From Patescibacteria group bacterium (lineage in GTDB: Bacteria; Patescibacteriota; Minisyncoccia; Phycocordibacterales; UBA12079): a DNA stretch of 64,000 nucleotides. The notes beneath the pieces were generated by a model. It worked only from the letters and a program-made list of their open reading frames with translations. It did not search any database and was not told where the DNA came from. The position numbers were made by a program, and so were the translations under genes. The DNA lies in assembly GCA_043800905.1 (NCBI GenBank), contig JAZDMO010000007.1, forward strand, positions 1,627 to 65,626, read 5' to 3'. Positions 12,860 through 63,965 of this stretch are shown here, in pieces; position 1 is the stretch's first letter, and each line of letters opens with the position of its first letter.

Positions 12860-13340
12860 AATGAAAAATTAATCAGGCTGTTTTATAAAATTCTTTCTGG
12901 ATTGCTTCGTCACTCCACTGCGTTCCGTTCCTCGCAATGACGGACGACGAAAAGCAAAACGTCTCTGCGAGATCAGATTTTTTAATAAAAATCTGATCGT
13001 GGCAGTCCAGACTTGTGAAATCACGAAGTGATTTAATTAAAAAACTAAAACCTCACTCGCAAAGACGAAAAACAAAGTTTTTCGTTACGTTTTGCGTTAA
13101 GCAAAACGTCTCTGCGAGGCACGAAGCAGTCCAGTAATAAAGTGTTTTTAGGAGGAGTGAAATAATATGATACTTGTCCGCCTTGCCTGCCCCTGCACGC
13201 CGGCAGGCGGGGGTAGACAGGTTGCTTCGTAAACTCGCAATGATGAATGACGAGATGCTGGGTTGATTTATAGACTTGTAATGATAAGTGAATGGATTTT
13301 TTAAAGTAAGATCCCCCTTCCTAAATTTATTCGCCGTGGC
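12860..13340. mobile_element. composite cluster of nested GC-rich MITE-like modules filling the pilB-pilT intergenic region
   Basis: No ORF. Contains atcaggctg..ctggattgcttcg (an inverted copy of the terminus seen at 16090-16129), cctcgcaatgacg, gtctctgcgag twice, cagtccag, and ccttgcctgcccctgcacgccggcaggcggg (an inverted copy of the 58556/63797 module). Modules recur at 15894, 19029, 25482, 31203, 58337 and 63775. Confidence 0.55.
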
Positions 13341-15800: not shown

Positions 15801-16429
15801 ATGACCTATAATTTAGAGGAAAGAACCGCTAAATACTCTGAAAATGTTATTTCTTTGATTAAAAGTGTCAAAATAAGGCTTAATGAAAAAAATATCAGGC
15901 TGAAAATGATAAACTAGCTAGTCTTAATATTATTTAAAATGATTTTTAATTAAAAACTTAAATATTTAAATTATAAAGAATTTAATTGTTTTAAAAATTT
16001 CTAGACTGCTTCGCAAGCTCGCAGAGACGAATGATTTCATCGTCCATTCGTTATTGCGAGGAATAAGATGCAGAGAAACAGAATCTTATGACGAAGCAAT
16101 CCAGAAAGAATTTCATAAAATAGCCTGATTAATTTACTATTAAGCTCAAAATAACATTGTTAAACAAAAACATAGTTGAACAATTATCAAAATCAGCCAC
16201 AAGTATCGGGGTTAACTATCATGAAACGAATAACGCTAGTTCTAAGAAAGATTTTATAAATAAGATTTATTTTTGTAAAAAAGAGGCTAACGAAACAAGA
16301 TATTGGTTAGATTTATTAAATAAAAATGAAATAAAGTTTACAGAAGATATTGGTTTATTGAAAAAAGAGAATCAAGAACTAGTCATGATTTTCCAGAAAA
16401 TAATCAATACTTCAAACAACAAACATTGA
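15801..16429 (+). pseudogene. four-helix-bundle protein (23S-rRNA-IVS-protein family) gene, split into an N-fragment (15801-15920) and a C-fragment (16157-16429) by an inserted repeat element
   Basis: The N-fragment translation MTYNLEERTAKYSENVISLIKSVKIRLNEKNI... matches the family N-terminus and ends at a stop inside the inserted element. The C-fragment QLSKSATSIGVNYHETNNASSKKDFINKIYFCKKEANETRYWLDLL matches the family C-terminal half. Confidence 0.5.
15894..16129. mobile_element. 236-bp MITE-like element with 8-bp terminal inverted repeats (atcaggct/agcctgat), inserted into the four-helix-bundle gene
   Basis: Termini atcaggct (15894) and agcctgat (16122). Inside are ctcgcagagacg, cgttattgcgagg and gacgaagcaatccag modules. 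The same terminus plus adjoining approx. 35 bp occurs inverted at 12872-12906. Confidence 0.5.
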
Positions 16430-19028: not shown

Positions 19029-19132
19029 CTCGCAATGACGGTCCGCTTAGGGCGGACCGTCATTGCGAGGAAAAAATTAAGCCTCAAAAGTTTTAAAACT
19101 TTTGAGGCTTAATTTTTGACGTGGCAATCCAG
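19029..19132. repeat. palindromic repeat element (ctcgcaatgacggtccgc..gcggaccgtcattgcgagg + aagcctcaaaagttttaaaacttttgaggctt + gacgtggcaatccag)
   Basis: Two perfect hairpins in series. Same family as 12755-12843 and 31203-31302. Confidence 0.6.
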
Positions 19133-19225: not shown

Positions 19226-20050
19226 ATGGAAAAATACCTACTTTATTTTTTTGTTTTTGTTTTGGGAACTATTATTGGTTCTTTTTTGAATGTAGTGATT
19301 TTACGTTTTAAAAAAAATTCTTTAAATGGAAGTTCTTCTTGTCCCCGATGTAAAAAAAATTTAAGATGGTTTGAATTGATTCCAGTTTTAAGCTTCCTTT
19401 TTTTGAAGGGCAGATGTCGCTATTGTCAAAAGAAAATTTCTTGGCAGTATCCTTTAGTAGAAATAGCAACAGGATTATTATTTTTATTTTCTTTTATTTT
19501 TTCCGCCCAAGGCGGATCCGCCTTGGGCGGACAATTTTTCATTAACCTTATTATTTTATGGGTTGTTTTTAGTTTATTGGTAGTAATTTTTGTTTATGAT
19601 TTATACCATAAAATTATTCCTAATATTTTTGTATATCTTTTTATATTATTTTCTTTTTTAAAAGTCATCATAACTTTTCAAAATTTTTCTTTCGGGGCTG
19701 ATATTTGGGCGGGGTTTTTAGTCTCTTTTCCTTTTGCTTTTTTATGGTTTGTTTCAGGAGGAAGGTGGCTTGGTTTTGGAGATGTAAAATTAGCCTTAGG
19801 TATTGGTTGGTTTTTAGGTTTAGTTCAGGGTTCTACTGCAGTTATTTTAGCTGTTTGGATGGGAGCCTTGGTTGGTTTGATTTTGGTTGGTTTAACAAAG
19901 TTATCCGAAAAACATAGATTGTTTTTTAGGCTTAATAATTTTACAATTAAAAGTGAATTACCTTTTGCCCCCTTTTTAATATTAGGTATTGTGATCACTT
20001 TTTTCTTTGACTTAGATGTTTGGGGCTTGGGAGCTTTGCTTCATGGTTAA
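19226..20050 (+). CDS. pilD: prepilin peptidase PilD (A24 family) carrying an in-frame palindromic insertion
   Basis: N-terminal zinc-ribbon CPRC...CRYC, a polytopic membrane domain, and the C-terminal GFGDVKL catalytic Asp region. 19503-19530 is the perfect palindrome ccgcccaaggcggatccgccttgggcgg, which encodes SAQGGSALGGQ in frame. Confidence 0.8.
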   Translation: MEKYLLYFFVFVLGTIIGSFLNVVILRFKKNSLNGSSSCPRCKKNLRWFELIPVLSFLFLKGRCRYCQKKISWQYPLVEIATGLLFLFSFIFSAQGGSALGGQFFINLIILWVVFSLLVVIFVYDLYHKIIPNIFVYLFILFSFLKVIITFQNFSFGADIWAGFLVSFPFAFLWFVSGGRWLGFGDVKLALGIGWFLGLVQGSTAVILAVWMGALVGLILVGLTKLSEKHRLFFRLNNFTIKSELPFAPFLILGIVITFFFDLDVWGLGALLHG

Positions 20051-28094: not shown

Positions 28095-28165
28095 CGCGGG
28101 ATGGTGTAGTGGTCGCACGGGAGGCTCATAACCTCCAGGGGTTTGTTCGATTCAAACTTCCGCAA
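28095..28165 (+). tRNA. tRNA-Met (anticodon CAU), initiator-like with a C1·A72 mismatch
   Basis: Manual fold: acceptor cgcggga/ttccgca with 1-72 C·A; D-stem gtgt/gcac; anticodon stem ggagg/cctcc with loop ctCATaa; 4-nt variable loop; T-arm gtttg-ttcgatt-caaac. CCA is not encoded. Followed by terminator aaaaccaccttaattaaggtggtttt (28170-28205). Confidence 0.6.
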
Positions 28166-28261
28166 CAAGTAAACAAAACCACCTTAATTAAGGTGGTTTT
28201 GTTTTGGGAAGTATTTAAAATTTTTTGTAAATATGTTATATTGTTTTTCGTATTAATAAAT

Positions 28262-28335
28262 GTCGGCGTAGCTCAGTTGGTTAGAGCGCAGCACTCATAA
28301 AGCTGAGGTCGAAGGTTCAACTCCTTCCGTCGACA
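28262..28335 (+). tRNA. tRNA with CAU anticodon: elongator Met or Ile2 (lysidine)
   Basis: Acceptor gtcggcg/cgtcgac; D-arm gctc-agttggtta-gagc; anticodon loop ctCATaa; T-arm gaagg-ttcaact-ccttc. Confidence 0.65.
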
Positions 28336-28387
28336 CACAGATTGTTGAGAAAATTAAGGATATCTGTTAAAGTATGTGTGCACTTTG

Positions 28388-28460
28388 CGGGTGTAGCTCA
28401 GCTGGTTAGAGCGTCCGCCTGTCACGCGGAAGGTCGAGGGTTCAAGTCCCTTCACTCGCG
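28388..28460 (+). tRNA. tRNA-Asp (GUC)
   Basis: Acceptor gcgggtg/cactcgc; anticodon stem tccgc/gcgga with loop ctGTCac; T-arm gaggg-ttcaagt-ccctt. A terminator hairpin follows at 28470-28500. Confidence 0.75.
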
Positions 28461-28551
28461 CAAAATTAAAAAACTGAAACTTTTTGTTTCGGTTTTTTAA
28501 TTTATATTGAAAATATATAGTTTTTCATATATTATTTAAATTGGTTTAAAA

Positions 28552-28627
28552 GCCAATGTAGCTCAGTTGGTAGAGCACCCCCATGGTCAGGGGGAGGTCT
28601 GCGGTTCAATCCCGCACATTGGCTCCA
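28552..28627 (+). tRNA. tRNA-Thr (GGU), CCA encoded
   Basis: Acceptor gccaatg/cattggc; anticodon stem ccccc/ggggg with loop atGGTca; T-arm tgcgg-ttcaatc-ccgca; 3' tcca. Confidence 0.75.
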
Positions 28628-28648
28628 ATTATAGAGGAGATGAGTTTC

Positions 28649-28721
28649 GCCCTCTTAGCTCATCTGGTAGAGCAACGGTATCGTAAATCGTAGGTGGTCG
28701 GTTCAAGTCCGACAGAGGGCT
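28649..28721 (+). tRNA. tRNA-Thr (CGU)
   Basis: Acceptor gccctct/agagggc; D-arm gctc-atctggta-gagc; anticodon stem acggt/atcgt with loop atCGTaa; T-arm gtcgg-ttcaagt-ccgac. Confidence 0.65.
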
Positions 28722-29610: not shown

Positions 29611-29630
29611 CCTGCCTGCCGGCAGGCAGG
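29611..29630. repeat. 20-bp perfect palindrome cctgcctgccggcaggcagg
   Basis: The same 20-mer occurs at 37292-37311 (inside a CDS) and 58439-58458. Partial copies at 13185 and 63945. Confidence 0.7.
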
Positions 29631-35586: not shown

Positions 35587-36753
35587 ATGCGAAAAAAGAT
35601 TTTAATATTTTCAACAGCCTACGAGCCCTTTATGTCTGGGGCAGAAGTGGCTGTTAAAGAAATCACTGATCGTTTAGGCGAAAGCTGTGAATTTTTCATG
35701 ATTACAGCACGGATGGATAAAAATTTGTCTAAGAAAGAAAAAATAGGAAATATAAATGTTTTTCGTGTGGGTTTTGGTTTTAAAAATCTGGATAAATTTC
35801 TCCTGCCTTTTTGCGGATTGTGGGTGGCTTTAAAAAATTATAAGAAAGAGAATTATCAAATTGTTTGGTCTATTATGGCAAGTCAGGCGAGTATCGGAGC
35901 TTCTTTTTTTAAGATTTTAAAACCACAGGTTAAATTATTGTTAACTTTGCAAGAAGGAGATGAAGAGGAATATTTAAAAAGATATGTTGGGGGGAGTGAT
36001 TTTTTGTATCGATTTTTAATTCAACCATGGCATCTTTTGGTTTTTCATAAGGCGGATTTGATTCAGACTATTAGTTTTGATTTAAAAAATAGAGCTTTGA
36101 AAAATGAGGTTGTTTGTCCTATTGAGGTTATTCCTAACGGAGTAGATATTGAAAATTTTAGTCAAAAATATTCGGTGACGGAATTAGATTCTTTAGCGAA
36201 AAGTTTAGGTAAAGAAGAAGACGACATTTTTTTAGTACACACGGGGCGTTTTAATTATAAAAATGGTTTAGAAGATTTGATCAAGTCTTTAATTTATTTA
36301 CCCCTTAATATTAAATTACTTTTATTGGGTGGGGGGATTGATGAAGAAAAATTAAAGGAGGTTGTGATGGAACGAAGTTTGGAAAAAAGAGTTAAGTTTT
36401 TGGGTTTTATTAATCATCAAGAATTACCAAAGTATTTGAGAATATCAGATATCTTTGTTCGTCCTTCTTTATCGGAAGGTTTGGGAAATTCTTTTTTGGA
36501 AGCCATGGTGGTTAAATTAGCAGTGATTGCTACCCCAGTGGGAGGTATTCCTGATTTTTTAAAAGACGAAGAAACCGGTTTATTTTGTATCGTACATAAT
36601 CCGGAATCCATAGCCGAAAGAGTGAAGAAAATTTTGGCTGATAAAAAATTGAAAGATTATATAGTTGAAAAAGCTTATAAAATGGTTATTAAAAAATATG
36701 ATTGGAATTTGATTGCTGTTGATATGGGAAAAATATTTGATTCTTTGGTATGA
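35587..36753 (+). CDS. glycosyltransferase family 4 (GT-B, group 1)
   Basis: C-terminal PSLSEGLGNSFLEAMVVKLAVIATPVGGIPDF (EX7E-type motif). Confidence 0.7.
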   Translation: MRKKILIFSTAYEPFMSGAEVAVKEITDRLGESCEFFMITARMDKNLSKKEKIGNINVFRVGFGFKNLDKFLLPFCGLWVALKNYKKENYQIVWSIMASQASIGASFFKILKPQVKLLLTLQEGDEEEYLKRYVGGSDFLYRFLIQPWHLLVFHKADLIQTISFDLKNRALKNEVVCPIEVIPNGVDIENFSQKYSVTELDSLAKSLGKEEDDIFLVHTGRFNYKNGLEDLIKSLIYLPLNIKLLLLGGGIDEEKLKEVVMERSLEKRVKFLGFINHQELPKYLRISDIFVRPSLSEGLGNSFLEAMVVKLAVIATPVGGIPDFLKDEETGLFCIVHNPESIAERVKKILADKKLKDYIVEKAYKMVIKKYDWNLIAVDMGKIFDSLV

Positions 36754-37859
36754 AAAATATTTTAATTACAACTGGGGTTTATCCTCCAGAAATAGGTGGT
36801 CCTGCGACTTATTCTAAGTTACTTTTTGATGAATTGCCTAAACGAGGCTATGAAGTAGAAGTTTTGCCTTTTAATGAAGTCCGCCATTTACCAAAAGGGA
36901 TTCGTCATATTGTCTATTTTTTTAAAATTTTAAAAAAGGCTAAGGGTGTTGATATTATTTATGCCCAAGATCCAGTTAGTGTTGGTTTCCCTTCAATGTT
37001 GATGGCTAGAATTTTAAACAAAAGATTTTTTGTGAGAATTGCTGGTGATTATGCTTGGGAACAGGGAGTTCAGAGATTTGGGATTACGGAAGATTTAGAT
37101 TCTTTTGCTGAAAAAGAAAAAGGTTATAATTTTTTTGTAAAAATATTTAAAACAATTCAAACTTGGGTGGCTGGAGATGCTGAAAATGTCATTGTCCCTA
37201 GTTATTATTTTAAAGGAATTATTGAAAAATGGGGAATAGATTCTGAAAAAATAAAGGTAATTTACAACGGAATTAGATTAAACGAGTCAAACCTGCCTGC
37301 CGGCAGGCAGGAGTCGAAAGTCCATAATGTCGAAGGGAAGGTTTTGTTGTCAGTGGGGAGATTGGTTCCATGGAAAGGTTTTAAAGTTTTAATTGAATGT
37401 ATACCAGAGCTTTTGAAAGAAATTCCGAATTTAAAATTAAAAATTGTGGGAAGTGGTCCGCAAAAAGAAGAATTAGAAAATTTAATTAATGAATTGGATT
37501 TAAACGAAAGTGTGGTTTTGGCAGGGCAATTATCTAGAGAGGAATTGTTGGAAGAAAAGAAAAGGGCTGATATTTTTGTTTTTAATACTAATTGGGAATC
37601 TTTTTCTTTTGATACTGTGGAAGCCATGTCTTTGGGTTTGCCTGTGATTGCAACAGAAGTGGGGCCTTTGCCTGAATTGATAGAAAATGGAAAAGAAGGA
37701 ATTTTAGTTGAACCGAATAATAAAGACCAGATTATAGAATCGATTCTGTTTGTTCTAAAAAATAATAAATTTAGAGAAAAAATTATTAAAAATGCGAGAT
37801 TAAAAGTTCAGCGATTTTCTATTGAAAATACTTTGGATGAATTAGAAAAAGTTCTTTAA
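36750..37859 (+). CDS. glycosyltransferase family 4 carrying an in-frame copy of the 20-bp palindrome
   Basis: GT4 C-domain SFDTVEAMSLGLPVIATEVGPLPELI. 37292-37311 cctgcctgccggcaggcagg is translated as LPAGRQ in the interdomain region. Confidence 0.7.
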   Translation: MKNILITTGVYPPEIGGPATYSKLLFDELPKRGYEVEVLPFNEVRHLPKGIRHIVYFFKILKKAKGVDIIYAQDPVSVGFPSMLMARILNKRFFVRIAGDYAWEQGVQRFGITEDLDSFAEKEKGYNFFVKIFKTIQTWVAGDAENVIVPSYYFKGIIEKWGIDSEKIKVIYNGIRLNESNLPAGRQESKVHNVEGKVLLSVGRLVPWKGFKVLIECIPELLKEIPNLKLKIVGSGPQKEELENLINELDLNESVVLAGQLSREELLEEKKRADIFVFNTNWESFSFDTVEAMSLGLPVIATEVGPLPELIENGKEGILVEPNNKDQIIESILFVLKNNKFREKIIKNARLKVQRFSIENTLDELEKVL

Positions 37860-39035: not shown

Positions 39036-39078
39036 AAGGCCCTACAAGGACGAAACCTTGTAGGGTGATCTTTTCCGT
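39036..39078 (+). terminator. intrinsic terminator
   Basis: aaggccctacaaggacgaaaccttgtagggtgatctttt. Confidence 0.55.
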
Positions 39079-39120: not shown

Positions 39121-40203
39121 ATGAAATTATTAATCGTAACGCAAAAAGTAGATAAGAATGATGATGTACTCGGTTTTATGCACGGGTGGATTTCTGAATT
39201 TGCAAAACATTGTGAAAAGGTGACAGTAATTGCTTTAGGTGTGGGTGAATATGATTTACCTCGAAATGTAAAAGTCTTATCCTTGGGAAAGAATAATTTG
39301 TTATTGCGAGGAGTGAAGCGAAGCGGAACGACGTGGCAATCCAGCAACAAAAGTCGTAAAAAATATATTTTTAATTTTTATAAATATATCTGGCAGGAGC
39401 GAAAAAATTACGATAATGTGTTTGTTCACATGAACCCCGAATACGTGGTTCTAGGGTCAATTTTATGGCGATTTTGGGGTAAAAGGGTGGGACTTTGGTA
39501 CACACATAAGGCTGTTAATTTAAAGTTAAGGATAGCTGAGAAAATGGCTAATTTGGTGTTCTCGGCTAGTTCAGAATCTTTTGGTTTAAAAAGCAAAAAA
39601 CTTCATATTACGGGTCATGGAATTAATTTAGAACAGCTTAAAATTAAGAAAGATAAAATTCAAAATGAGATTTTCAAAATGATTTTAGTCGGAAGGATTG
39701 CTCCCATAAAAAATCAAGACATCTTGATTAAATCGGCGGTAATTTTAAAAAATAAATATCTGGATTTTAAATTTAAAATTGATTTAATTGGTGGGGCTGA
39801 TTCATATGTTCAAAGAGAATATAAAGTGCTTCTTGAAAGTTTGGTTAAAACAAATAATTTAGAAAATGAAATTAGTTTCGTTTCTCCTGTCGCTAATAAA
39901 GAAATCAATGCTATTTATGAAAAAGCGAATTTAAGTTTAAATTTGTGTCCCACAGGAGGAGCTGACAAAGTGGTTTTGGAATCAATGGCTTGTGAATTGC
40001 CTGTTATAGTTTTTAATAAAACCTTTGAGAATATTTTACCCGAAGAATTAATTTTAGAAAAATTAGAACCAGAACTTTTAGCAGAAAAAATTTATGAAAT
40101 TTCTCAGAAGAAAAATTTGAATTTTGGATTAAGAGAAAGGGTTGAAAAAAGTCATAATTTGAAAAAATTAATCATTAAGATTTTAAATTTATATTATGCT
40201 TAA
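39121..40203 (+). CDS. GT-B glycosyltransferase (GT4-like) carrying an in-frame repeat-element fragment
   Basis: GT-B C-domain features (CPTGGADKVVLESMACELPVIVF). 39301-39344 ttattgcgaggagtgaagcgaagcggaacgacgtggcaatccag is a family half-element, translated as LLRGVKRSGTTWQSS. Confidence 0.5.
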   Translation: MKLLIVTQKVDKNDDVLGFMHGWISEFAKHCEKVTVIALGVGEYDLPRNVKVLSLGKNNLLLRGVKRSGTTWQSSNKSRKKYIFNFYKYIWQERKNYDNVFVHMNPEYVVLGSILWRFWGKRVGLWYTHKAVNLKLRIAEKMANLVFSASSESFGLKSKKLHITGHGINLEQLKIKKDKIQNEIFKMILVGRIAPIKNQDILIKSAVILKNKYLDFKFKIDLIGGADSYVQREYKVLLESLVKTNNLENEISFVSPVANKEINAIYEKANLSLNLCPTGGADKVVLESMACELPVIVFNKTFENILPEELILEKLEPELLAEKIYEISQKKNLNFGLRERVEKSHNLKKLIIKILNLYYA

Positions 40204-51901: not shown

Positions 51902-52807
51902 CTAGATTTTCATCCAAGTTAAGGGTATTGGATTATATTTATTTTTTTCTAAATCAGTAAACCACTTTTCAGGGGCTATTACTATTTTGTCAGGGTTTGG
52001 GTTTAACCAAGCTCCCCACCAACTAAAAGAACTGTTAGCAATAACATTGTGTTTACACAAGCTCATCAATATTAAATCTTCATAATTTTTGTTTTCTTCA
52101 ACAAAGGTAATAGAGAATTCGGTTTTAAAATTTTCTTTTGCCCACCAGATATCATCAGAAAAAACAAAGATTTTTAGATCTTTGAATTTTTCTGAAATTT
52201 TTTGGATAGCGTTTTGATAATAATCTAAAGAACAGATTTCATAAATTTTGTTTGTTTTTTTATTATTGATATAATCGCTTCTGCGAATATGGATAGAAAT
52301 TGAATTTGTGTTTTCAATAATCCCTTTTAATTTTTGATTTTTAATTGAGAATTCATTTTTTAAAGTAAATTCTTCACGAATAATATTTTTAATATTTTTT
52401 CCGTTCGAGATAAATCCGTCTTGGGCGGAAAAATATTTTTCGTTTTGCCAATAACCATCTAGATAAATATCTTTGTTGGAATTTTCTAGTATTTTTTTAT
52501 TAAAATTATTCGGCTTTTCAGTAATATAAATTGAATTATCTGAAAAAAATAAATTATAAAAAAGATATTTCCAATTATTTATTTTTTTATATTTCTTTAA
52601 CTTTTTTATTTCGTCATTGTTCGCTATCTTTTCAACTATATTAAAAATTCCTAATTCATATTTGCGAGGAGTCGTGTTTTTTTTAATGTGATTAAACCAA
52701 GAGATATCTAATTTTAATTCGGTTTTATTTTTTTCAGCCAAAGCACGTCCAATTGCATATTGGAACATTTGATTTCCTAAACCGCCTGTTAATTTAACAA
52801 TAATCAT
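51902..52807 (-). CDS. glycosyltransferase family 11 alpha-1,2-fucosyltransferase (FutC-like)
   Basis: GGLGNQMFQYA at the N-terminus, HIRRSDY, CKHNVIANSSFSWWGAWL, KIVIAPEKWF: all four GT11 hallmarks. Confidence 0.7.
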   Translation of the reverse strand: MIIVKLTGGLGNQMFQYAIGRALAEKNKTELKLDISWFNHIKKNTTPRKYELGIFNIVEKIANNDEIKKLKKYKKINNWKYLFYNLFFSDNSIYITEKPNNFNKKILENSNKDIYLDGYWQNEKYFSAQDGFISNGKNIKNIIREEFTLKNEFSIKNQKLKGIIENTNSISIHIRRSDYINNKKTNKIYEICSLDYYQNAIQKISEKFKDLKIFVFSDDIWWAKENFKTEFSITFVEENKNYEDLILMSLCKHNVIANSSFSWWGAWLNPNPDKIVIAPEKWFTDLEKNKYNPIPLTWMKI

Positions 52808-52808
52808 A

Positions 52809-53393
52809 TTATTTATTTTTCAAACCGAGAGTCTCTGCGGCTGTTGTTTTTTGCCTGAATCCTACCACTTTTGCTGGGGCCCCGACAGCAATAGCATATT
52901 CGGGAATATCTTTGGTTACAACACTGCCAGCTCCGATAACGGCGCCTTTTTCTATGGTGACACCGTCTAGTATAGATGAATTTCCTCCTATCCAGACTTC
53001 GTCTTTTATTATGGTTCCTTTCATTTCGTTTCCGCTTGTTTTTATTGACTCTGTTGTTTTTATGTTGTGGTTAGCCCCGGGGATATTTACATTTGGGCCT
53101 ATTGAAACATTATTTCCTATCTTTACTTTTCCACAAATAAAGTTATTAACCCCTAAATCACAATTATCTCCAACAGTTAATTCAATAGGTGATATGAAAC
53201 AATTATGGTAAATCGTTATGTTTTTACCAAATTTAATTTTGTTTTTGTTCCTTATAAAAGTATTGTTGAAAAGCGTAATAGGGAGTTCTATTTTTTCAAA
53301 TTTATTTTTGTTTAAAAAATAAAAAAATAAACCATAAAGTTTTTGTTTGTTCTTAGAATATTTATATAAATAAAACAATCTTTTTCTTAACAT
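52809..53393 (-). CDS. hexapeptide-repeat (left-handed beta-helix) O-acetyltransferase
   Basis: Repeated [LIV]G..xx[IV] hexads (IGNNVSIGPNVNI, IGGNSSILDGVTIEKGAVIGAGSVV). Confidence 0.65.
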   Translation of the reverse strand: MLRKRLFYLYKYSKNKQKLYGLFFYFLNKNKFEKIELPITLFNNTFIRNKNKIKFGKNITIYHNCFISPIELTVGDNCDLGVNNFICGKVKIGNNVSIGPNVNIPGANHNIKTTESIKTSGNEMKGTIIKDEVWIGGNSSILDGVTIEKGAVIGAGSVVTKDIPEYAIAVGAPAKVVGFRQKTTAAETLGLKNK

Positions 53394-58336: not shown

Positions 58337-58641
58337 TTCGCAATGATATTTATTTACTGGATTGCCACACCGAGCGCCAAAAACTTTAATTAAAGTTTTT
58401 GGTGCTCGGCTCGCAATGACGAACGAACGGATGTTGGACCTGCCTGCCGGCAGGCAGGTTGCCATGATATCGCTCGCAATGACGAGATGCTGGGTTGCTT
58501 CGTAAACTCGCAATGACGAACTGACGAATAAACACTGGATTCCTCCCAAGCCTACCTGCCCCCGCCTGCCGGCGTGCAAGGGCAGGCAGGGCGGACAAAT
58601 GCCACAGAATTTTTTAAAACAAAAAATTCTTCGCAATGACG
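58337..58641. mobile_element. approx. 300-bp cluster of nested GC-rich repeat modules
   Basis: Contains ctggattgcc, ctcgcaatgacg three times, the 20-bp palindrome 58439-58458, gacgagatgctgggttgcttcgtaaactcgcaatgacg (inverted at 13215-13260), and tggattcctcccaagcctacctgcccccgcctgccggcgtgcaagggcaggcagggcgg (copy at 63775-63835). The ORFs tracked here on the minus strand are translations of the repeats. Confidence 0.6.
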
Positions 58642-58838
58642 ATAATTTTTTGGGATGTTTTTTCTTTGTTTTTTATGTTGTTTTTTGGTATAATTTTTCG
58701 GTTATACTTAACAGAGTTGCAAGTTTTTAAAGTTTATAAAATTCGTAAAGTTTATCTGTAGGTAGATAGAAAATTACTTTGTAATTTTTTCGAAATATTT
58801 TTTGACTTTAAATCTGTATTAGAAATTAAAATACTTTT

Positions 58839-60554
58839 ATGTTAAACAAAATAGGTTTAGGTAGTGTCCAAAATAGAATAATGAGGATCAAGGAACTTCG
58901 TCGCAATCAAAGAATTTTGATTTTATTAGTAATATTGATTTTGGCGGTGGTGTTATATCAACAGGTAGTCATCAAAGATATTTTAGAAGAAACTGTAATG
59001 ACTTCAGAGGCAAGACTGGTAGAAGTTTCTTCTGTTAAAGATTTAACACTTGATAATACTCCTTTACCTTTATTGGGAAAGGTTCAGTCTCAATCATCGG
59101 CAATAATTTATTCTCAGAGTGCTGGGGAGGTAATTGGTTTGTATAAAAAAGAAGGAGATTTTGTTTGGGCAGATCAAATCATCGGAGAAATAGATAATTG
59201 GGCTCAAAGATCAACTGTAATTCAAGCTGAAGCAAATGTTGAAATGGCAACTGCCCAACTGGAAAAAATTAAAAAAGGTGCTAGGGAAGAACAAATTTCT
59301 ATTCTAAAAGCCACTTTGAATAATTCCCAAAATTCTTTAAACGAAACTAAGGCATCGGTTATCAATACTTTAAATGATGCCTACGGAAAATCAGATGATG
59401 CTATTCGTAATAAAATAGATCCTATGTTTCGAGACCCTCGCAACGAGGCTCCGCAGTTACTTTTTTCTGTGAATGATTCTCAGTTAGAGATTGATTTGGA
59501 ATGGGGAAGAAGAATAATTGAAGAAATGTTGAAAGTTTGGGAAAAAGAATTAAGTGTTTTAAACACGGAAGCGGATTTAATTAAAGCTTTGAACACTGCA
59601 AAAGATAACGTGGATTCGGTGAGAACTTTTTTGGATAAAATGGCGACGGCTGTTAATGTGCTAACTCCTAATTCTAATTTATCAGAAACAACAATTGCTA
59701 CATGGAAAGCAAATGTAAGTGCTAGCCGATCGGTTATTAATTTGGTGGTGGCAAGTATTCCGGCTTCTATTAATTCTTTAAATGGAGCTAATTCATCTTT
59801 AAGTATCGCTCAATTAAATTATGAACAAGCTCTTTCTGGAGAGAGAACAGAAGATATCATCAGTGCTGAAGCTCAGTTAAAACAAGCGCAGGCAGGTTTA
59901 CAGGTGGCTTATTCTTCTTTAGAAAAAACTATTTTAAGAGCTCCGATTAGTGGAACCATTAATGATCTTGGTTTTGAAAAAGGTGACTTTGTATCAACCT
60001 ATGCTCCTTTGGTAACAATTGCGAATAATGCGAAACTTGAAATTGTTTCTTATATTACAGAAGTAGATCGAAGTGATATTCAGGTTGGAGCAAACGTTTT
60101 AGTTGGTAAAAAATGGAAGGGAACGGTAAAGACTATTGCTCCCGCTTTAGATTCTCAAACTAAAAAAATTAAAGTAGAAATTTCTTTGATTGATTCTGAT
60201 GTTCCTTTAACTAATGGACAATCTATTGCTTTGTTGGTTGAGAGGTTTGTTAAGAAAGAAGGTTCCTTAAGTGAATTTTCGGTGCCGATTTCTGCTATTA
60301 AAATTGGAGCTGATAACACGGTAGTTTTCACTATTAACAATGAAAATCGTTTGGTGGCCCATCCTGTTTTAACCGGTCCAATTTTAGGGGAAAAAATTAC
60401 TATTTTAGATGGAGTAACTGAAGATATGGTTATTGTGACGGACGCTCGTGGTTTGCGGGAAGGACAAGAGGTCGTTTTAGCTCCTTCTTTAGGAACCTCT
60501 AATCCAGAGAAAAAAGAAACAGATTCGACATTAAATAATCTAAATCAAAATTAA
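58839..60554 (+). CDS. HlyD-family membrane fusion (periplasmic adaptor) protein
   Basis: N-terminal TM anchor, long coiled-coil region, and a C-terminal beta-barrel/lipoyl-like segment (APISGTINDLGFEKGDFVS). Confidence 0.7.
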   Translation: MLNKIGLGSVQNRIMRIKELRRNQRILILLVILILAVVLYQQVVIKDILEETVMTSEARLVEVSSVKDLTLDNTPLPLLGKVQSQSSAIIYSQSAGEVIGLYKKEGDFVWADQIIGEIDNWAQRSTVIQAEANVEMATAQLEKIKKGAREEQISILKATLNNSQNSLNETKASVINTLNDAYGKSDDAIRNKIDPMFRDPRNEAPQLLFSVNDSQLEIDLEWGRRIIEEMLKVWEKELSVLNTEADLIKALNTAKDNVDSVRTFLDKMATAVNVLTPNSNLSETTIATWKANVSASRSVINLVVASIPASINSLNGANSSLSIAQLNYEQALSGERTEDIISAEAQLKQAQAGLQVAYSSLEKTILRAPISGTINDLGFEKGDFVSTYAPLVTIANNAKLEIVSYITEVDRSDIQVGANVLVGKKWKGTVKTIAPALDSQTKKIKVEISLIDSDVPLTNGQSIALLVERFVKKEGSLSEFSVPISAIKIGADNTVVFTINNENRLVAHPVLTGPILGEKITILDGVTEDMVIVTDARGLREGQEVVLAPSLGTSNPEKKETDSTLNNLNQN

Positions 60555-60558
60555 TTTC

Positions 60559-63500
60559 ATGAAAGATTTTTGGACTTTTTTTATAAGAAAAAGAGCGTTC
60601 ACTAGTTTATTAGTTATTTCTTTAACAATTGCTGGGATTTTTTCTTTGGTTAAAATTACCAAAGAGTCATCTCCTGAAATTCAAATTCCTTTAGCGATTG
60701 TTTCTACTTTTTTACCAGGGTCTTCTGCTTACGATACGGAAAGATTAATTACGGATAAGATTGAAGACCAATTGATTAATAATCTTGATACTGTAAGTAA
60801 GGTATCTTCTACTTCGGGGGAAGGAATTTCTTCAATTACAGTAGAATTTAATGCTGATGCTGATATTCCTAGTTCAATTCAAAAGGTTAAAGATGAGGTA
60901 GATAAAGTTAAGGGAGAATTGCCAACTGAAGCTGAGGATCCTATTATTTCTGATATTAATTTTGCCGATCAGCCGATTTTAATGTTTTCTATTTCTAGCG
61001 ATTTACCAACAACCGAGTTTATTAAATTAGCTGATAATGTTGAAGCAAAATTAAAAACTGTTAGTGGTGTTTCTAAGTTAGGTATTAGTGGTATTCAAAA
61101 AAGAGAGGTACAAGTTATCGTTGATAAGGCAGCCTTATCTAAATTTAATTTAGGGATTTCTGATTTAGTTTCTGCTATTTCTCGCGCCAATAGTTCTATT
61201 CCGGTAGGAAATATTGAAATTTCTGGAATTAAATATCCGTTAAAATTTAAAGGAGATATTACCGATACCGCCGTGATTAAAGATATTCCGGTTTTGAATT
61301 TGGGAGGGGAAGTTATTTATGTTAGAGATTTAGCCTTTGTTTCAGATGGGGTTTCCCAACAAAATTCTTATTCTCGTATTAGCTTGGACGGAGAGCCTTC
61401 TCAACAAGCGGTTTCTTTCTCTGTTTATAAAAAACGTGGTGGAGATATTACTTCTATTGTGAATGGAGTAAAAAAATCTATAGAAGAAATGCAAAACGGT
61501 GGAATTTTAGAGGGATCCGAAGTTTTGTATTCGGTGGATATGGCAGAATATTTGAAAGACGATTTAAATAATCTTTCGGGTTCTGGTTTGGTAACCGTCT
61601 TTCTGGTGGTGATGATTTTGTATTTATCTATCGGTTGGCGAGAAGCTTTAATCGCTGGTTTAGCTATTCCATTTTCCTTCTTAATTGCCTTTATCGGTTT
61701 GTATTCTAGTGGAAACACTATTAATTTTATTTCTTTGTTTGCTTTGATTTTAGCGGTCGGAATTTTGGTCGATTCTGCCATTGTGGTAACGGAAGCGATG
61801 CACACCAAAATTAAAGATGGAATGGGTGGAAAAGAATCAGCTATCGCAACTATAAAAGAATTTTATATGTCTTTGACCTCAGGGACCATGACTACGGTGG
61901 CCGCTTTTTTCCCTTTATTTTTTCTGTCAGGAATTATGGGTAAGTTTGTGAGTGGAATTCCTTATACTTTGATTTTTGTTTTGTTTGCTTCTTTGTTTGT
62001 TGCTTTAGGAATTGTGCCTTTAATTGCCATGTTAGTTTTGAAAAAAAATGGAAATTCAAATGGTAAGTTGTTTAAATTCCAAACTAAATACAATAATCTT
62101 CTTAAAGATTGGTATGAAGTTCGCTTGAAAAATATTATTTTAAATCGAAAATTTCAAAATAAATTTTTATGGGCTATGGGAATAGCTTTGGTGTTATCTT
62201 TTATTTTACCTTTAAGTGGTTTATTAAAAACGACCTTATTTCCAGATGAAGATCAAAAGTTTATTTATGTAGATGTGGAGATGCCTCAAGGAACTGTTTT
62301 GGCAGAAACTGATATGGCGGTGCGAGCAGTAGAGGAAATTCTTTATAATCAACCTTTTATAGAATCTTTTGAAACTAGTGTTGGGGCAACAAATTCTTTC
62401 AGTAATTCAGGATCTAGTTCTGGTGAAAAATTTGGAAATATGACGGTGATTTTGCGTAAGGATAGGAGTAAAACCAGTTACGAAATTGTTGAAGTTTTAA
62501 GAAAAGAATTGGCTCCTATTAAAATTGCAAAGGTAATTGTTGCTCAGCCAGGAAGCGGGCCTCCTTCAGGAGCACCGATTACAATTAAATTTTTTGGAGA
62601 TGATTTAGATAATTTGGAAAAGGTTGTTTTTCAAGCAGGTGAGGTTTTGAAAGAAATTTCTGGGACTGTTGATGTGACCAATAGTATGGAAAATAATGTA
62701 ATTGAATTTGTTTTATCTATTGATAGGGCAAAGCTGGCAGAAAATAATCTTTCTCCTGTTTCTTTAGCACAGGTTTTAAGAACTTCTATTTATGGTGTCG
62801 ATGCTACAACTATTAAAACAGCTGGGGAAGATATTGATGTTTTGGTTAAATTAAATTTAAATTCAGAAAATATTGATCCCAGCTTAACTTCTCAAACAAC
62901 AGTAGATGCTATTCGCCAAATGGAAATTAGTACACCACAAGGAAAGGTTTTGTTGGGTTCTTTGCTGGATATTAGTTTAAGTAAAAATAATTCTTCGATT
63001 ATTCATGAAGATGGAGATCGAGTAGCGACTGTTTCCAGTCAGTTGGCAAAGGGGGCAAACGCTGTAGAAATTAATAAAGAATTTCAAAAAAAGATTGATG
63101 ATGGAACCTTATCTATTCCAGAAGGGATTAGGTTGAAGACTGGAGGAGAAAATGAAGATATTATGAAAACTTTTACTGAAATGTTAATGGCTTTAGTTGC
63201 TGGATTGCTTTTGGTGATTGTGGTTTTGATTTTACAATTTGATTCTTTCAAACAAACTTTCTTTATTGTGGTGGGAGTGATGATGTCATTGATCGGAGTT
63301 TTGGTCGGTTTGACTATTACAGGAAATGCTTTTTCTTTCCCTTCTTTTATTGGAGTGATTGCTTTGGCTGGAATTGTGGTAAATAATGCTATTATTTTGA
63401 TTGATACCATGAATTCTATGCGAATGGAAAAACCAGATTTAGAATTAGTTGAGGTGGTAATTCAATCTTCAATTACACGTTTGCGTCCAATTTTGTTAAC

Positions 63501-63651
63501 GACCTTAACTACTGTGATTGGTATGGTACCTTTGATTTTTGCTTCTAGTATGTGGGCTCCTTTGTCATTTTCAATTATCTTTGGACTTTCTTTTGCAACT
63601 GTGATTACTTTAATTTTGGTACCAGTTTTGTATGTGAGATATACGAAATAA
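60559..63651 (+). CDS. RND superfamily efflux permease (AcrB/HAE-type, 12 TM, 1030 aa)
   Basis: Two large periplasmic loops and the duplicated 6-TM architecture. Conserved TM4-like GLAIPFSFLIAFIGLY and TM10-like segments. Confidence 0.85.
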   Translation: MKDFWTFFIRKRAFTSLLVISLTIAGIFSLVKITKESSPEIQIPLAIVSTFLPGSSAYDTERLITDKIEDQLINNLDTVSKVSSTSGEGISSITVEFNADADIPSSIQKVKDEVDKVKGELPTEAEDPIISDINFADQPILMFSISSDLPTTEFIKLADNVEAKLKTVSGVSKLGISGIQKREVQVIVDKAALSKFNLGISDLVSAISRANSSIPVGNIEISGIKYPLKFKGDITDTAVIKDIPVLNLGGEVIYVRDLAFVSDGVSQQNSYSRISLDGEPSQQAVSFSVYKKRGGDITSIVNGVKKSIEEMQNGGILEGSEVLYSVDMAEYLKDDLNNLSGSGLVTVFLVVMILYLSIGWREALIAGLAIPFSFLIAFIGLYSSGNTINFISLFALILAVGILVDSAIVVTEAMHTKIKDGMGGKESAIATIKEFYMSLTSGTMTTVAAFFPLFFLSGIMGKFVSGIPYTLIFVLFASLFVALGIVPLIAMLVLKKNGNSNGKLFKFQTKYNNLLKDWYEVRLKNIILNRKFQNKFLWAMGIALVLSFILPLSGLLKTTLFPDEDQKFIYVDVEMPQGTVLAETDMAVRAVEEILYNQPFIESFETSVGATNSFSNSGSSSGEKFGNMTVILRKDRSKTSYEIVEVLRKELAPIKIAKVIVAQPGSGPPSGAPITIKFFGDDLDNLEKVVFQAGEVLKEISGTVDVTNSMENNVIEFVLSIDRAKLAENNLSPVSLAQVLRTSIYGVDATTIKTAGEDIDVLVKLNLNSENIDPSLTSQTTVDAIRQMEISTPQGKVLLGSLLDISLSKNNSSIIHEDGDRVATVSSQLAKGANAVEINKEFQKKIDDGTLSIPEGIRLKTGGENEDIMKTFTEMLMALVAGLLLVIVVLILQFDSFKQTFFIVVGVMMSLIGVLVGLTITGNAFSFPSFIGVIALAGIVVNNAIILIDTMNSMRMEKPDLELVEVVIQSSITRLRPILLTTLTTVIGMVPLIFASSMWAPLSFSIIFGLSFATVITLILVPVLYVRYTK

Positions 63652-63774: not shown

Positions 63775-63965
63775 GGATTCCACCCAAGCCTACCTGCCCC
63801 CGCCTGCCGGCGTGCAGGGGCAGGCAAGGCGGACAGGTGCCACACAAGGTTTTTTGATTTTTCTTCAAAAATCAAAAAACTGTATAATTATGACGACCGT
63901 CATAATTATACAGTTTGTTTTTTTTGCTAGACCTGTCTACTGGCAGGCAGGCTTGGGTGGAATTC
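63775..63965. mobile_element. approx. 190-bp MITE-like element with approx. 25-bp terminal inverted repeats and nested internal palindromes; further family modules run to the window end
   Basis: Left end ggattccacccaagcctacctgcc, right end ggcaggcaggcttgggtggaattcc. Internal cctgccggcgtgcaggggcaggc, the hairpin ttgatttttcttcaaaaatcaa, and the perfect 16-bp-arm palindrome ctgtataattatgacg-a-ccgtcataattatacag (63880-63913). Confidence 0.6.

What the first reader, a model, noticed from the sequence alone, without database searches (positions are those of the whole stretch)
19503..19530. In-frame palindromic insertions inside protein-coding genes (pilD, two glycosyltransferases), reminiscent of Rickettsia palindromic elements
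Three CDSs contain GC-rich repeat-family sequence translated in frame without stops. pilD carries ccgcccaaggcggatccgccttgggcgg at 19503-19530, encoding SAQGGSALGGQ. The GT4 gene carries the 20-bp palindrome at 37292-37311, encoding LPAGRQ. The GT gene at 39121 carries a 44-bp half-element at 39301-39344, encoding LLRGVKRSGTTWQSS. The inserted stretches lie in loop/linker positions and are compositionally foreign to the host genes. This suggests selfish elements that are tolerated, or exapted, as small peptide insertions.
Basis: partly seen in the sequence, partly recalled or inferred. Interest (0 to 1): 0.75.

Follow-up and report, generated by a model that had tools for sequence, protein, structure and literature searches.

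The report
Tiny palindromic repeats translated inside genes
Three genes of this small-genome (Patescibacteria) bacterium each carry a short, GC-rich palindromic repeat that is read through as a 6-16-residue loop; this is the known Rickettsia-style "selfish DNA inside genes" phenomenon, here in a new lineage, with much smaller elements and a strong reading-frame filter.

Summary
They belong to three different repeat families, not one.

- palB (pilD): a 30-34 nt perfect palindrome, found in at least 120 metagenome contexts.
- palA (GT4): a 20-nt palindrome, also present in unrelated high-GC viral contigs.
- Site 3: a complete unit of a CGTC-tagged REP-like family, not a half-element.

Ortholog alignments show each is an insertion into a hypervariable loop or linker. 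Relatives carry other repeats, decayed remnants or nothing at the same spot.

palB sits in housekeeping genes of several CPR lineages, including AlaRS, MetRS, MiaA, KsgA, LigA and FtsK. In long ORFs, 54 of 58 copies use one of three stop-free frames (SAQGGSALGG); intergenic copies use all three equally. So the copies are translated and filtered by selection.

Near-identical AlaRS and phosphomannomutase alleles differ by exactly 33 and 30 nt. Neither has a target-site duplication, and each has a cluster of substitutions beside the element. Copies decay, so exaptation is unsupported.

What moves them is unknown. This is a new variant of a known kind (intragenic REPs / RPEs). Interest is moderate.

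The parts
19500..19533 (.). palB: 30-nt perfect palindrome TCCGCCCAAGGCGGATCCGCCTTGGGCGGA (19502-19531) plus the semi-conserved T-N / N-A flanks. It is a 15-nt hairpin followed by its reverse complement. It is translated as S93-AQGGSALG-G102 of PilD.
   Evidence: (13-bp hairpin, -28.4 kcal/mol, z = -6.2).
19226..20050 (+). Host gene 1: prepilin peptidase (PilD-like, 274 aa). The element forms the loop between helices 74-94 and 102-128.
37285..37318 (.). palA: 20-nt perfect palindrome CCTGCCTGCCGGCAGGCAGG (37292-37311) flanked by the 7-nt direct repeat AGTCAAA / AGTCGAA. Together they encode N181-LPAGRQE-S189.
36750..37859 (+). Host gene 2: GT4-family glycosyltransferase (369 aa). The insert lies between the Glyco_transf_4 domain (16-178) and the Glycos_transf_1 domain (189-350), in a disordered linker.
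39299..39343 (+). Complete unit of a CGTC-type REP-like family: TGTT-ATTGCGAGGA-GTGAAGCGAAGCGGAAC-GACGTGGCAATCC-A. The tag is degenerate here (TGTT). It is translated as L60-LLRGVKRSGTTWQS-S75.
39121..40203 (+). Host gene 3: glycosyltransferase (360 aa). The insert is in the variable loop after the LSLGK strand.
29611..29630 (.). Intergenic palA copy, flanked by cATAAAAA / cATTAAAA.
58439..58458 (.). palA copy in a short (112-aa) open frame, probably non-coding. It has no flanking repeat.
12898..12942 (-). Intergenic complete unit of the CGTC-type family: CGTC-ATTGCGAGGA...GACGAAGCAATCC-A.
16049..16103 (+). Intergenic complete unit of the CGTC-type family: CGTT-ATTGCGAGGA...GACGAAGCAATCC-A.
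19029..19069 (.). Intergenic composite palindrome upstream of pilD. Two inverted CGTCATTGCGAG arms surround a TCCGC-TTAGG-GCGGA hairpin that resembles half of palB.
   Evidence: (-40.9 kcal/mol, z = -11).
52415..52429 (-). Single half-hairpin TCCGCCCAAGACGGA (one mismatch to the palB half). It reads SAQDG in frame in a GT11-family gene (ORF 51902-52819).
   Evidence: Not checked against orthologs.

Best explanation
The three sites are copies of three families of short, GC-rich, hairpin-forming repeats (REP-like, non-autonomous selfish DNA). These families are scattered through the AT-rich genomes of Patescibacteria (CPR bacteria).

Copies land, or are copied by recombination, both between and inside genes. 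Inside genes, the only copies that persist are those that:
- keep the reading frame;
- fall in a tolerant loop or linker;
- for palB, read in the one frame that gives a small, flexible Gly/Ser/Ala peptide (SAQGGSALGG).

They are transcribed and translated as part of the host protein. They are passengers, not adaptations. They decay by point mutation, and the same permissive loops are hit repeatedly by different families.

What is shown: insertion status, dispersal, the frame filter, loop location, decay, and presence/absence polymorphism without target-site duplication.

What is inferred:
- Spread between homologous alleles occurs by short-tract gene conversion. This rests on one clean case plus two weaker ones.
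- Colonisation of new sites uses a hairpin-recognising activity acting in trans. A RAYT-like Y1 (HUH) transposase is the most plausible candidate, but no such enzyme is linked to palA or palB here.
For: Insertion status.
- GT4: empty orthologs against window/L240, at protein and DNA level.
- GT3: eight orthologs have no insert.
- PilD: the loop is the only indel-rich segment of the protein. It carries palB, palA, a third palindrome, AT-rich repeats or nothing in different orthologs.
- MiaA host against solved structure 2qgn_A: an exact 11-residue gap lies opposite SAQGGSALGGN.

Dispersal.
- The 58 host ORFs hit 124 Pfam families.
- Named hosts lie in Ca. Magasanikbacteria, Moranbacteria, Giovannonibacteria/Paceibacterota, Nomurabacteria and Parcubacteria. 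One MAG has at least 5 in-frame copies.

Translation and selection.
- 54 of 58 copies in open frames of 200 aa or more use the SAQGGSALGG frame.
- Copies in open frames under 100 aa split 10:9:10 across the three frames.
- The binomial p-value is 1.5e-21.

Location. AlphaFold models place the inserts in a transmembrane-helix connecting loop and in a disordered inter-domain linker. Positions along the host proteins are uniform.

Recent gain or loss.
- AlaRS alleles 99.3% identical differ by exactly 33 nt.
- Phosphomannomutase alleles differ by exactly 30 nt.
- Neither has a target-site duplication.
- In AlaRS, all 14 mismatches of the gene lie in the 32 nt next to the element, and 6 of them are synonymous.

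Decay.
- L002 palB has 2 substitutions.
- L240 palA has 2 C-to-T changes.
- L242 has a badly eroded palA.
- P0017 has a remnant SAQ--SRQ.

Y1 transposases. Y1 genes flanked by their own matched hairpins exist in related Patescibacteria.
Against: - No mobilising enzyme is identified. No Y1 homologue occurs in the window or in any palA/palB locus held. That DNA amounts to less than about one genome-equivalent, so the absence is weak evidence.
- Flanking direct repeats are enriched: palB has 12 copies with 7 nt or more against 1.6 expected, and palA has 4 against 0.14. A transposase that makes no target-site duplication does not predict this. However, most of these flanks are short tandem arrays, and both clean polymorphisms lack any duplication.
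- Window and L001 PilD share 12 of 12 identical codons across the element, against 57.6% elsewhere in the gene. This could mean constraint on the DNA or RNA rather than recent, independent insertion.
- palA is identical in unrelated high-GC viral contigs and sits in tRNA genes there. The Patescibacteria-centred picture does not explain this.
- Translation is inferred from the frame bias. No peptide has been observed.
Confidence: 0.78

Rival explanations
1. The palindromes are functional nucleic-acid signals placed inside genes. Candidates are intragenic transcription terminators or attenuators, RNase or recombination sites, or binding sites for a protein. On this view the peptide is a by-product.
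For: - The pilD copy is a 13-bp GC hairpin (-28.4 kcal/mol) followed by CAATTTTTCA on the sense strand. It is called terminator-like.
- It is perfectly conserved at nucleotide level between the window and L001, although 42% of synonymous codons elsewhere in the gene differ.
- The exact 30-mer is shared across several CPR lineages.
Against: - Only 3 of 58 coding copies have a sense-strand T-run after the hairpin.
- Copies sit at uniform positions in unrelated genes.
- Copies erode and lose their symmetry in relatives.
- Close relatives do without them.
- The strong frame bias shows that the peptide, not only the DNA, is under selection.
Confidence: 0.1
2. The inserted peptides have been exapted. 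They would serve as useful flexible linkers or hinges, or as variable surface loops in the pilus and glycosylation machinery, maintained by positive selection.
For: - SAQGGSALGG is an ideal flexible linker.
- Inserts sit at helix-helix and domain-domain junctions.
- The same loops are occupied again and again in orthologs.
- The residues next to the insert change together with it in AlaRS (W to F, H to N) and in phosphomannomutase (FA to WK). These could be compensatory changes.
Against: - Near-identical alleles and many orthologs lack the inserts.
- The occupants of one loop are unrelated in sequence: palA, palB, palC and AT-rich repeats.
- Copies decay.
- The same peptide occurs in at least 124 protein families with no common function.
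Confidence: 0.07
3. The elements are present in the DNA but are not translated. Either the ribosome bypasses them, as with the byp elements derived from GC clusters in Magnusiomyces mitochondria, or they are removed from the mRNA.
For: This is a known fate of GC-rich hairpin elements inserted in the genes of an AT-rich genome (PMC8811140). The hairpins here are very stable.
Against: Bypass or excision would remove any constraint on frame. Yet 54 of 58 genic copies use one frame, against 10:9:10 for intergenic copies. The clean insertions are exact multiples of three: 30, 33 and 27 nt. Both facts are as expected only if the elements are read.
Confidence: 0.03
4. The residues are ancestral protein sequence, or the palindromes are sequencing or assembly artefacts.
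For: In PilD the total protein length (274 aa) is typical of its orthologs. All the data come from metagenome assemblies.
Against: - Empty sites exist for all three genes.
- Identical nucleotide elements occur in unrelated genes.
- The same insertions appear in independent assemblies from NCBI, ENA, JGI and Logan, with point mutations and in-frame constraint.
- The elements match nothing in Rfam.
Confidence: 0.02

Closest known systems
Rickettsia palindromic elements (RPEs; Ogata et al. 2000, as summarised in PMC10969869 and PMC3733652)
   Same: - Palindromic repeats inserted in frame in many unrelated housekeeping genes of a reduced genome.
- They encode a family-specific peptide.
- They sit at positions compatible with the protein fold.
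- No transposase is known.
- RPE-4 and RPE-6 carry the CGTC tag, and the site-3 family here carries it too.
   Different: - RPEs are about 100-150 bp. The elements here are 20-45 nt.
- palA and palB are perfect palindromes without a tag.
- The hosts are free-living or episymbiotic CPR bacteria, not Rickettsia.
REPs (repetitive extragenic palindromes) with GTAG or CGTC tags, and intragenic REPs (Di Nocera et al. 2013, PMC3733652)
   Same: - 20-40 bp GC-rich stem-loops.
- Often arranged as head-to-head dimers. palB is a hairpin plus its inverse.
- Some lie inside genes and are translated.
- The CGTC class lacks a dedicated transposase.
- The site-3 family has the CGTC/TGTC tag, an AT-starting stem and a CCA/CCC tail.
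   Different: - palA and palB have no GTAG or CGTC tag.
- The site-3 family has a 5-bp outer stem and a 20-30 nt variable interior, not an 8-9 bp stem with a 4-5 nt loop.
- More than half of the palB copies are genic, whereas classical REPs are mostly extragenic.
Mobile GC clusters of yeast mitochondrial DNA, including the in-frame clusters of var1 (PMC8811140)
   Same: - Short GC-rich palindromes in a very AT-rich genome.
- Found in frame in a protein gene.
- Spread between alleles by unidirectional gene conversion.
- They decay and merge quickly.
- They act as recombination hotspots.
- The AlaRS mosaic patch here resembles co-conversion.
   Different: - The yeast elements are organellar, not bacterial.
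- GC clusters have AG/TAG terminal duplications, which are not seen here.
- There is no sequence relationship.
byp translational-bypass elements of Magnusiomyces mitochondria (Lang et al. 2014, cited in PMC8811140)
   Same: GC-rich hairpin elements sitting inside coding sequence of an AT-rich genome.
   Different: byps are skipped by the ribosome, so they need not be in frame. Here the frame bias and the multiple-of-three lengths argue for translation.
MITEs
   Same: Non-autonomous, dispersed, terminal inverted symmetry. Flanking direct repeats occur in a minority of copies.
   Different: - MITEs are 70-300 bp with 15-30 bp terminal inverted repeats and a fixed target-site duplication.
- These elements are 20-34 nt.
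- The flanking repeats here vary from 6 to 14 nt.
- They are absent from both clean polymorphic insertions.

Membership tests
REP superfamily (GTAG/CGTC-tagged, PMC3733652) | Short (20-40 bp) GC-rich palindromic stem-loop present in many dispersed copies | tested here: met
   palB is 30 nt and occurs in at least 120 contexts. palA is 20 nt, with 3 copies in the window, more in relatives and 35 viral stretches. The hairpins are stable.
REP superfamily (GTAG/CGTC-tagged, PMC3733652) | Terminal GTAG or CGTC tetranucleotide at one end | tested here: not met
   For palB, of 117 copies only 5 have CGTC, 4 GACG, 2 GTAG and 2 CTAC within 12 nt of the core. palA flanks are heterogeneous. This row applies to palA and palB only.
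CGTC-type REPs (class containing RPE-4/RPE-6, PMC3733652) | CGTC (or TGTC) tag, stem starting with A-T pairs, short unpaired CCA-like tail | tested here: met
   Site-3 family copies read (C/T)GTC-ATTGC...GCAAT-CC(A/C) in the window and in L087, L140, L158, L194, L221 and L241. The genic window copy has a degenerate tag, TGTT, and the tail CCA.
CGTC-type REPs (class containing RPE-4/RPE-6, PMC3733652) | Stem of 8-9 bp with a loop of 4-5 nt | tested here: not met
   The outer stem is only ATTGC/GCAAT, enclosing a variable interior of 20-30 nt. The fold of the window copy is not significantly stable (z = -1.7).
REPtron (REP + RAYT) | A Y1 (RAYT) transposase gene flanked by the cognate repeats in the same genome | tested here: inconclusive
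   tblastn finds no Y1 homologue in the window or in any palA/palB locus, but less than about one genome-equivalent was searched. Relatives L240 and L011 have Y1 genes flanked by their own, different hairpins. The L240 protein scores 28.9 bits against NCBIfam REP_Tyr_transpos, below the cut-off of 80.
Rickettsia palindromic elements | About 100-150 bp element encoding a conserved peptide, inserted in frame in many ORFs | tested here: not met
   In-frame insertion in many ORFs is met. Size is not: 20-45 nt here. Sequence similarity to RPE families could not be tested because no RPE sequences were held.
MITE | Fixed-length target-site duplication flanking terminal inverted repeats, 70-300 bp | tested here: not met
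   Direct repeats are enriched but variable (6-14 nt), found in roughly 10-20% of copies and mostly within tandem arrays. They are absent from the AlaRS and phosphomannomutase filled/empty pairs. The size is far below the MITE range.
Intrinsic terminators | GC-rich hairpin followed by a U-run on the transcribed strand | tested here: not met
   The pilD copy fits, but only 3 of 58 genic palB copies do.
Translational bypass (byp-like) elements | Element not decoded, so there is no constraint on frame or length | tested here: not met
   54 of 58 genic copies use one frame, against 10:9:10 for intergenic copies. The insertions are 27, 30 and 33 nt. No direct protein data were available.

The most novel reading that the evidence does not exclude
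palA and palB might not be passive debris. They might be actively homing hairpin elements that move between CPR lineages, and in the case of palA through phages and even tRNA genes. A hairpin-specific nuclease would cut empty alleles, and repair would copy in the element together with a short stretch of donor flank.

This would explain four observations:
- the mosaic patches next to the element;
- the absence of target-site duplications;
- the nucleotide-perfect conservation across candidate phyla;
- the repeated occupation of the same loops.

It would amount to a new, extremely small (20-34 nt) class of horizontally spreading selfish element in bacteria that reshapes the loops of essential proteins.
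Probability: 0.15. Interest if true: 0.8.

Novelty: new variant of a known kind. Interest (0 to 1): 0.55.

Why it matters
First, it extends the 'selfish DNA inside protein genes' phenomenon from Rickettsia and a few Proteobacteria to the Candidate Phyla Radiation, where it appears to be common. I found no description of this in the searchable literature.

Second, it matters practically for CPR genomics:
- These inserts inflate loop lengths.
- They create lineage-specific 'signature' peptides that are really repeat DNA.
- They seed spurious small ORFs.
- They are likely hotspots of recombination and assembly breaks.

Third, the palB data set is a natural insertion-tolerance experiment. One 10-residue peptide is dropped into well over a hundred protein families, with a measurable frame filter (93% in one frame). 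This shows that selection on the encoded peptide decides which copies survive.

Fourth, the filled/empty allele pairs give a concrete handle on how such elements move, which remains unknown even for RPEs and CGTC-type REPs.

Tried and rejected
- PilD orthologous loci from species-representative genomes. This showed the families are absent from about 1.4 Mb of more distant DNA, but it was no help for close comparisons.
- A fixed 7-nt target-site duplication with '20 + 7 = 27 nt, always in frame'. This looked attractive after L003 (TTTTCAA on both sides) and GT4. I rejected it as a general rule for four reasons. Repeat lengths and offsets vary. Most flanks are tandem arrays. P0025 gains only 7 aa. 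The AlaRS and phosphomannomutase polymorphisms have no duplication.
- The terminator hypothesis, rejected by the 3 of 58 result.
- A link to the Y1 transposase gene of L240. It has no homologue in the window or in the palB loci, and its flanking hairpins are a different sequence.
- Rfam: nothing at the palindromes, only five tRNAs.
- The ATP synthase gamma and NusA clusters as further filled/empty replicates. The length differences were a start-site call in one and an unrelated indel in the other.
- FtsK filled against empty alleles. At 88% identity, in a hypervariable acidic linker, the comparison is too noisy to count as more than weak support.
- In-situ origin of the palindromes by template switching. 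This is excluded for palB by identical 30-mers at more than 100 unrelated loci.
Full report
**1. The observation**

The window is 31% GC. It comes from a Patescibacteria MAG: the exact PilD, GT4 and GT proteins are annotated as 'MAG... [Patescibacteria group bacterium]' on an 82-kb contig.

All three quoted sequences are at the stated coordinates and are read through in frame.

| Site | Coordinates | Host ORF | Peptide |
|---|---|---|---|
| 1 (palB) | 19503-19530 | prepilin peptidase, 19226-20050 | S93-AQGGSALG-G102 |
| 2 (palA) | 37292-37311 | GT4 glycosyltransferase, 36750-37859 | LPAGRQ |
| 3 | 39301-39344 | glycosyltransferase, 39121-40203 | LLRGVKRSGTTWQSS |

Neither palindrome is expected by chance: 0.00 matches in 100 dinucleotide-preserving shuffles for each. 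All three elements are compositionally foreign to their hosts: GC 0.73, 0.80 and 0.54 against 0.29-0.31.

As RNA, palB folds into a 13-bp hairpin of -28.4 kcal/mol (z = -6.2) and palA into an 8-bp hairpin of -15 kcal/mol (z = -2.8). The site-3 element is not significantly structured (z = -1.7). Rfam recognises none of them.

**2. Three families, not one**

palB is TCCGCCCAAGGCGGATCCGCCTTGGGCGGA, a 15-nt hairpin joined to its own reverse complement. Across 105 contexts the 30 nt are about 98% invariant. They are flanked by a semi-conserved T (87 of 105) and A (84 of 105) two bases out.

palA is the 20-nt CCTGCCTGCCGGCAGGCAGG.

Site 3 is a full unit of a family with the consensus (C/T)GTC-ATTGCGAGGA-[variable 10-30 nt]-GACG(A/T)(A/G)GCAATCC(A/C). 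The window has two further complete, intergenic copies at 12898-12942 (minus strand) and 16049-16103. Its arms also form the large palindrome at 19029-19069 just upstream of pilD. The CGTC/TGTC tag, AT-starting stem and CCA tail are the hallmarks that Di Nocera et al. give for CGTC-type REPs, the class containing RPE-4 and RPE-6 (PMC3733652). The stem and loop dimensions differ, however.

**3. Are they insertions?**

GT4. The closest orthologs read LNES-KVHKVH, while the window reads LNES|NLPAGRQES|KVH. At DNA level:
- The empty relative L239 has GAG TCA | GAA GTC CAT.
- The window and L240 have GAG TCA AA|palA|AG TCG AA|A GTY CAT.
- They share the same A-to-G change in the second repeat copy, so this is one ancestral event.
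- L240's palindrome has since taken two C-to-T changes that break its symmetry.

The insert (N181-S189) lies between the two Pfam domains. It coincides with a disordered segment of the AlphaFold model (pLDDT below 50 at 181-194; mean pLDDT 88.3).

GT3. Eight orthologs have nothing between LSLGKE and the next helix. P0243 has SLRGVERSETTWQSK from the same family. Other orthologs carry unrelated repeat-like peptides. L241 shows the fuller element with its CGTC tag.

PilD. The loop between helices 74-94 and 102-128 of the model (mean pLDDT 85.9) is the only indel-rich part of the protein. Its occupants differ between orthologs:
- palB in the window, P0002, P0004 and P0005.
- palA at the very same codon in P0018/L003.
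- An eroded palA plus a third palindrome (CCCTAACGGG-TAATC-CCCGTTAGGG) in P0008/L242.
- AT-rich FNFQF repeats in others.
- An apparent remnant (SAQ--SRQ) in P0017.
- A short plain loop in P0012, P0013, P0016 and P0025.

P0025 instead has a perfect palA in another loop and another frame (SCLPAGR).

On a neighbour-joining tree built without the loop, the palB-bearing PilDs fall in three separate clades (no bootstrap). Window and L001 share 12 of 12 identical codons over the element, against 57.6% for identical residues elsewhere (p about 0.001). L002's copy has two substitutions. The loop is therefore a recurrently hit, permissive site.

**4. palB is a dispersed element that is translated and filtered**

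Dispersal. The viral collection had none. These give 103-105 non-redundant contexts in DNA of 0.28-0.52 GC. The 58 host ORFs match 124 Pfam families, including AlaRS, MetRS, EF-Tu-type GTPases, SMC, RecG, KsgA, MiaA, TGT, LigA, FtsK, PyrG, TrmD, RF1, NusA and ATP synthase gamma.

Hosts. Exact-sequence look-ups name the hosts as Ca. Magasanikbacteria, Moranbacteria, Giovannonibacteria/Paceibacterota, Nomurabacteria and Parcubacteria. One Magasanikbacteria MAG has the element in at least five proteins.

Frame. The palindrome has three stop-free frames, which are the same on both strands.

| Open frame through the copy | SAQGGSALGG | PPKADPPWA | RPRRIRLGR |
|---|---|---|---|
| 200 aa or more (58 copies) | 54 | 2 | 2 |
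| under 100 aa, the intergenic control (29 copies) | 10 | 9 | 10 |

The binomial p-value is 1.5e-21. This is the strongest argument that the copies are decoded and that selection on the peptide decides which survive.

Context. The consensus is [F/L/I/M/V]-SAQGGSALGG-[K/E/D/N/Q]. Positions along the host proteins are uniform, from 0.01 to 0.94. KsgA and AlaRS are each hit at two different positions in different genomes.

Independent check. Against a solved MiaA structure (2qgn_A), the peptide falls in an exact 11-residue gap between conserved segments.

**5. How do they move?**

Flanking direct repeats are enriched:
- palB: an exact repeat of 7 nt or more in 12 copies, against 1.6 expected by permutation.
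- palA: 4 of 46 copies, against 0.14 expected.

They are variable in length (6-14 nt) and offset. They occur in a minority of copies even though all copies were selected as intact. Most lie in short tandem arrays that run on both sides of the element.

The two clean filled/empty comparisons are as follows.

AlaRS of Ca. Magasanikbacteria:
- The two contigs are 100% identical over 747 nt upstream and 99.86% over 2,804 nt downstream.
- They differ by exactly 33 nt (TCC...GGA GAT).
- All 14 other mismatches lie in the 32 nt immediately after the element.
- Six of these are synonymous, and the patch still encodes a homologous peptide.

Phosphomannomutase:
- The insertion is exactly 30 nt.
- The two codons directly upstream are changed (TTT GCT to TGG AAA).
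- The surrounding roughly 300 nt are otherwise identical.

Neither pair has a target-site duplication. FtsK shows the same one-sided scrambling, but in a hypervariable linker.

The AlaRS patch is best read as a short gene-conversion tract from a diverged allele that carried, or lacked, the element. That means exchange between homologous sites by recombination, much like the co-conversion described for the yeast mitochondrial var1 GC cluster (PMC8811140). The direction is undetermined, and this rests on one clean case.

How new, non-homologous sites are colonised remains open. A hairpin-recognising Y1 (RAYT-like) transposase is the obvious candidate:
- Related Patescibacteria loci encode Y1 proteins flanked by matched GC-rich hairpins. 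L240 has GAGAAACCCGGTTTCTC twice, and L011 has TGCGGGTGT...ACACCCGCA twice.
- The best NCBIfam hit is 'REP-associated tyrosine transposase', but below the cut-off.
- None is linked to palA or palB, and none is in the window.

**6. Rival readings**

- Terminator or other nucleic-acid function. The pilD copy looks like a terminator, but only 3 of 58 genic copies do, and copies decay.
- Exaptation. Near-identical alleles lack the inserts, one loop hosts unrelated occupants, and the host proteins are functionally unrelated.
- Translational bypass or RNA excision. This is contradicted by the frame bias and by insert lengths of 27, 30 and 33 nt.
- Ancestral sequence or artefact. This is contradicted by the empty sites, and by independent assemblies that carry mutated copies.

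**7. Comparison with what is known, and novelty**

The phenomenon is known:
- RPEs inserted in frame in Rickettsia genes (PMC10969869).
- Intragenic GTAG/CGTC REPs in several phyla (PMC3733652).
- In-frame GC clusters in yeast mitochondrial var1 (PMC8811140).

Site 3 is a member-like relative of the CGTC class. palA and palB fail the tag criterion and are untagged perfect palindromes three to seven times shorter than RPEs.

Three full-text searches found no description for CPR/Patescibacteria.

What is new here:
- the lineage;
- the element type and size;
- identity of the 30-mer (exact over the 24-nt core searched) across several candidate phyla;
- the quantified frame filter;
- the hotspot loops;
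- the filled/empty alleles with adjacent mosaic patches.

I therefore rate it a new variant of a known kind, of moderate interest.

**8. Unexplained**

- palA occurs with exact sequence in 35 stretches of IMG/VR contigs, most of them 54-68% GC. Some of these copies lie inside tRNA genes.
- The cause of the substitution clusters next to palB is unknown.
- The origin of the variable flanking repeats is unknown.

Noticed in passing
L108 2239-2330; L085 ~8616; L115 ~515 (IMG/VR contigs): The exact palA palindrome sits inside tRNA genes of unrelated viral contigs. In L108, ARAGORN accepts a 92-nt tRNA-Met(CAT) with palA as a long variable arm. L085 has the same context. In L115, palA interrupts a D-loop and no tRNA is called.
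   Followed up: partly
L084-L118 (IMG/VR): palA is not confined to Patescibacteria. It has 35 exact-match stretches, most of them in contigs of 54-68% GC. One 29.5-kb contig (L104/L111/L112) has six copies, some of them as the core of longer palindromes.
   Followed up: partly
L240 10552-11296; L011 7199-7978: These are REPtron-like units in related Patescibacteria. Y1 (IS200/RAYT-like) genes are flanked on both sides by matched GC-rich hairpins (GAGAAACCCGGTTTCTC in L240; TGCGGGTGT...ACACCCGCA in L011). The hairpins are different from palA and palB.
   Followed up: partly
window 39040-39065: A GTAG-ended hairpin, CCCTACAAGGACGAAACCTTGTAGGG, lies in the 92-nt spacer between two GT genes. This is exactly where the syntenic locus L240 carries its Y1 transposase gene, so it may be a REP left behind.
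   Followed up: no
window 52415-52429 (minus strand), ORF 51902-52819: A lone half of palB with one mismatch (TCCGCCCAAGACGGA) reads SAQDG in frame in a Glyco_transf_11 gene. It was not compared with orthologs.
   Followed up: partly
window 59430-59456 (HlyD-like ORF 58830-60554) and 62541-62577 (AcrB-like ORF 60544-63651): Two further GC-rich in-frame stretches (RDPRNEAPQ and VAQPGSGPPSGAP). The first contains GTTGCGAGGG on the opposite strand and may be an eroded CGTC-family copy.
   Followed up: no
window 13173-13225, 58542-58599, 63780-63843, 63940-63961: A family of longer (50-65 nt) GC-rich composite palindromes with a palA-like core (…GCCTGCCGGCGTGCA…). All lie in short open frames or intergenic DNA.
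   Followed up: no
PilD, GT4 and GT3 ortholog alignments A1-A3; window ~37312-37340: AT-rich short tandem arrays fill the same variable loops as the palindromes. Examples are TTTTCAATTTT, giving FNFQF/IFNFQ, and (AAAGTCCAT)n, giving KVHKVH. They may be a separate class of loop-filling repeat, or a preferred target.
   Followed up: no
L186 2953-4065; L131 2022-4070: An ATP-grasp protein (L186) carries palB plus other repeat-derived peptides (EAQRSGEIP...IPRLPSVARDD). In L131, palB sits in the MiaA half of a MiaB-MiaA fusion ORF.
   Followed up: no
window 28095-28721: A cluster of five tRNA genes (Rfam). They account for several of the GC-rich islands in the composition scan and are unrelated to the repeats.
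   Followed up: yes
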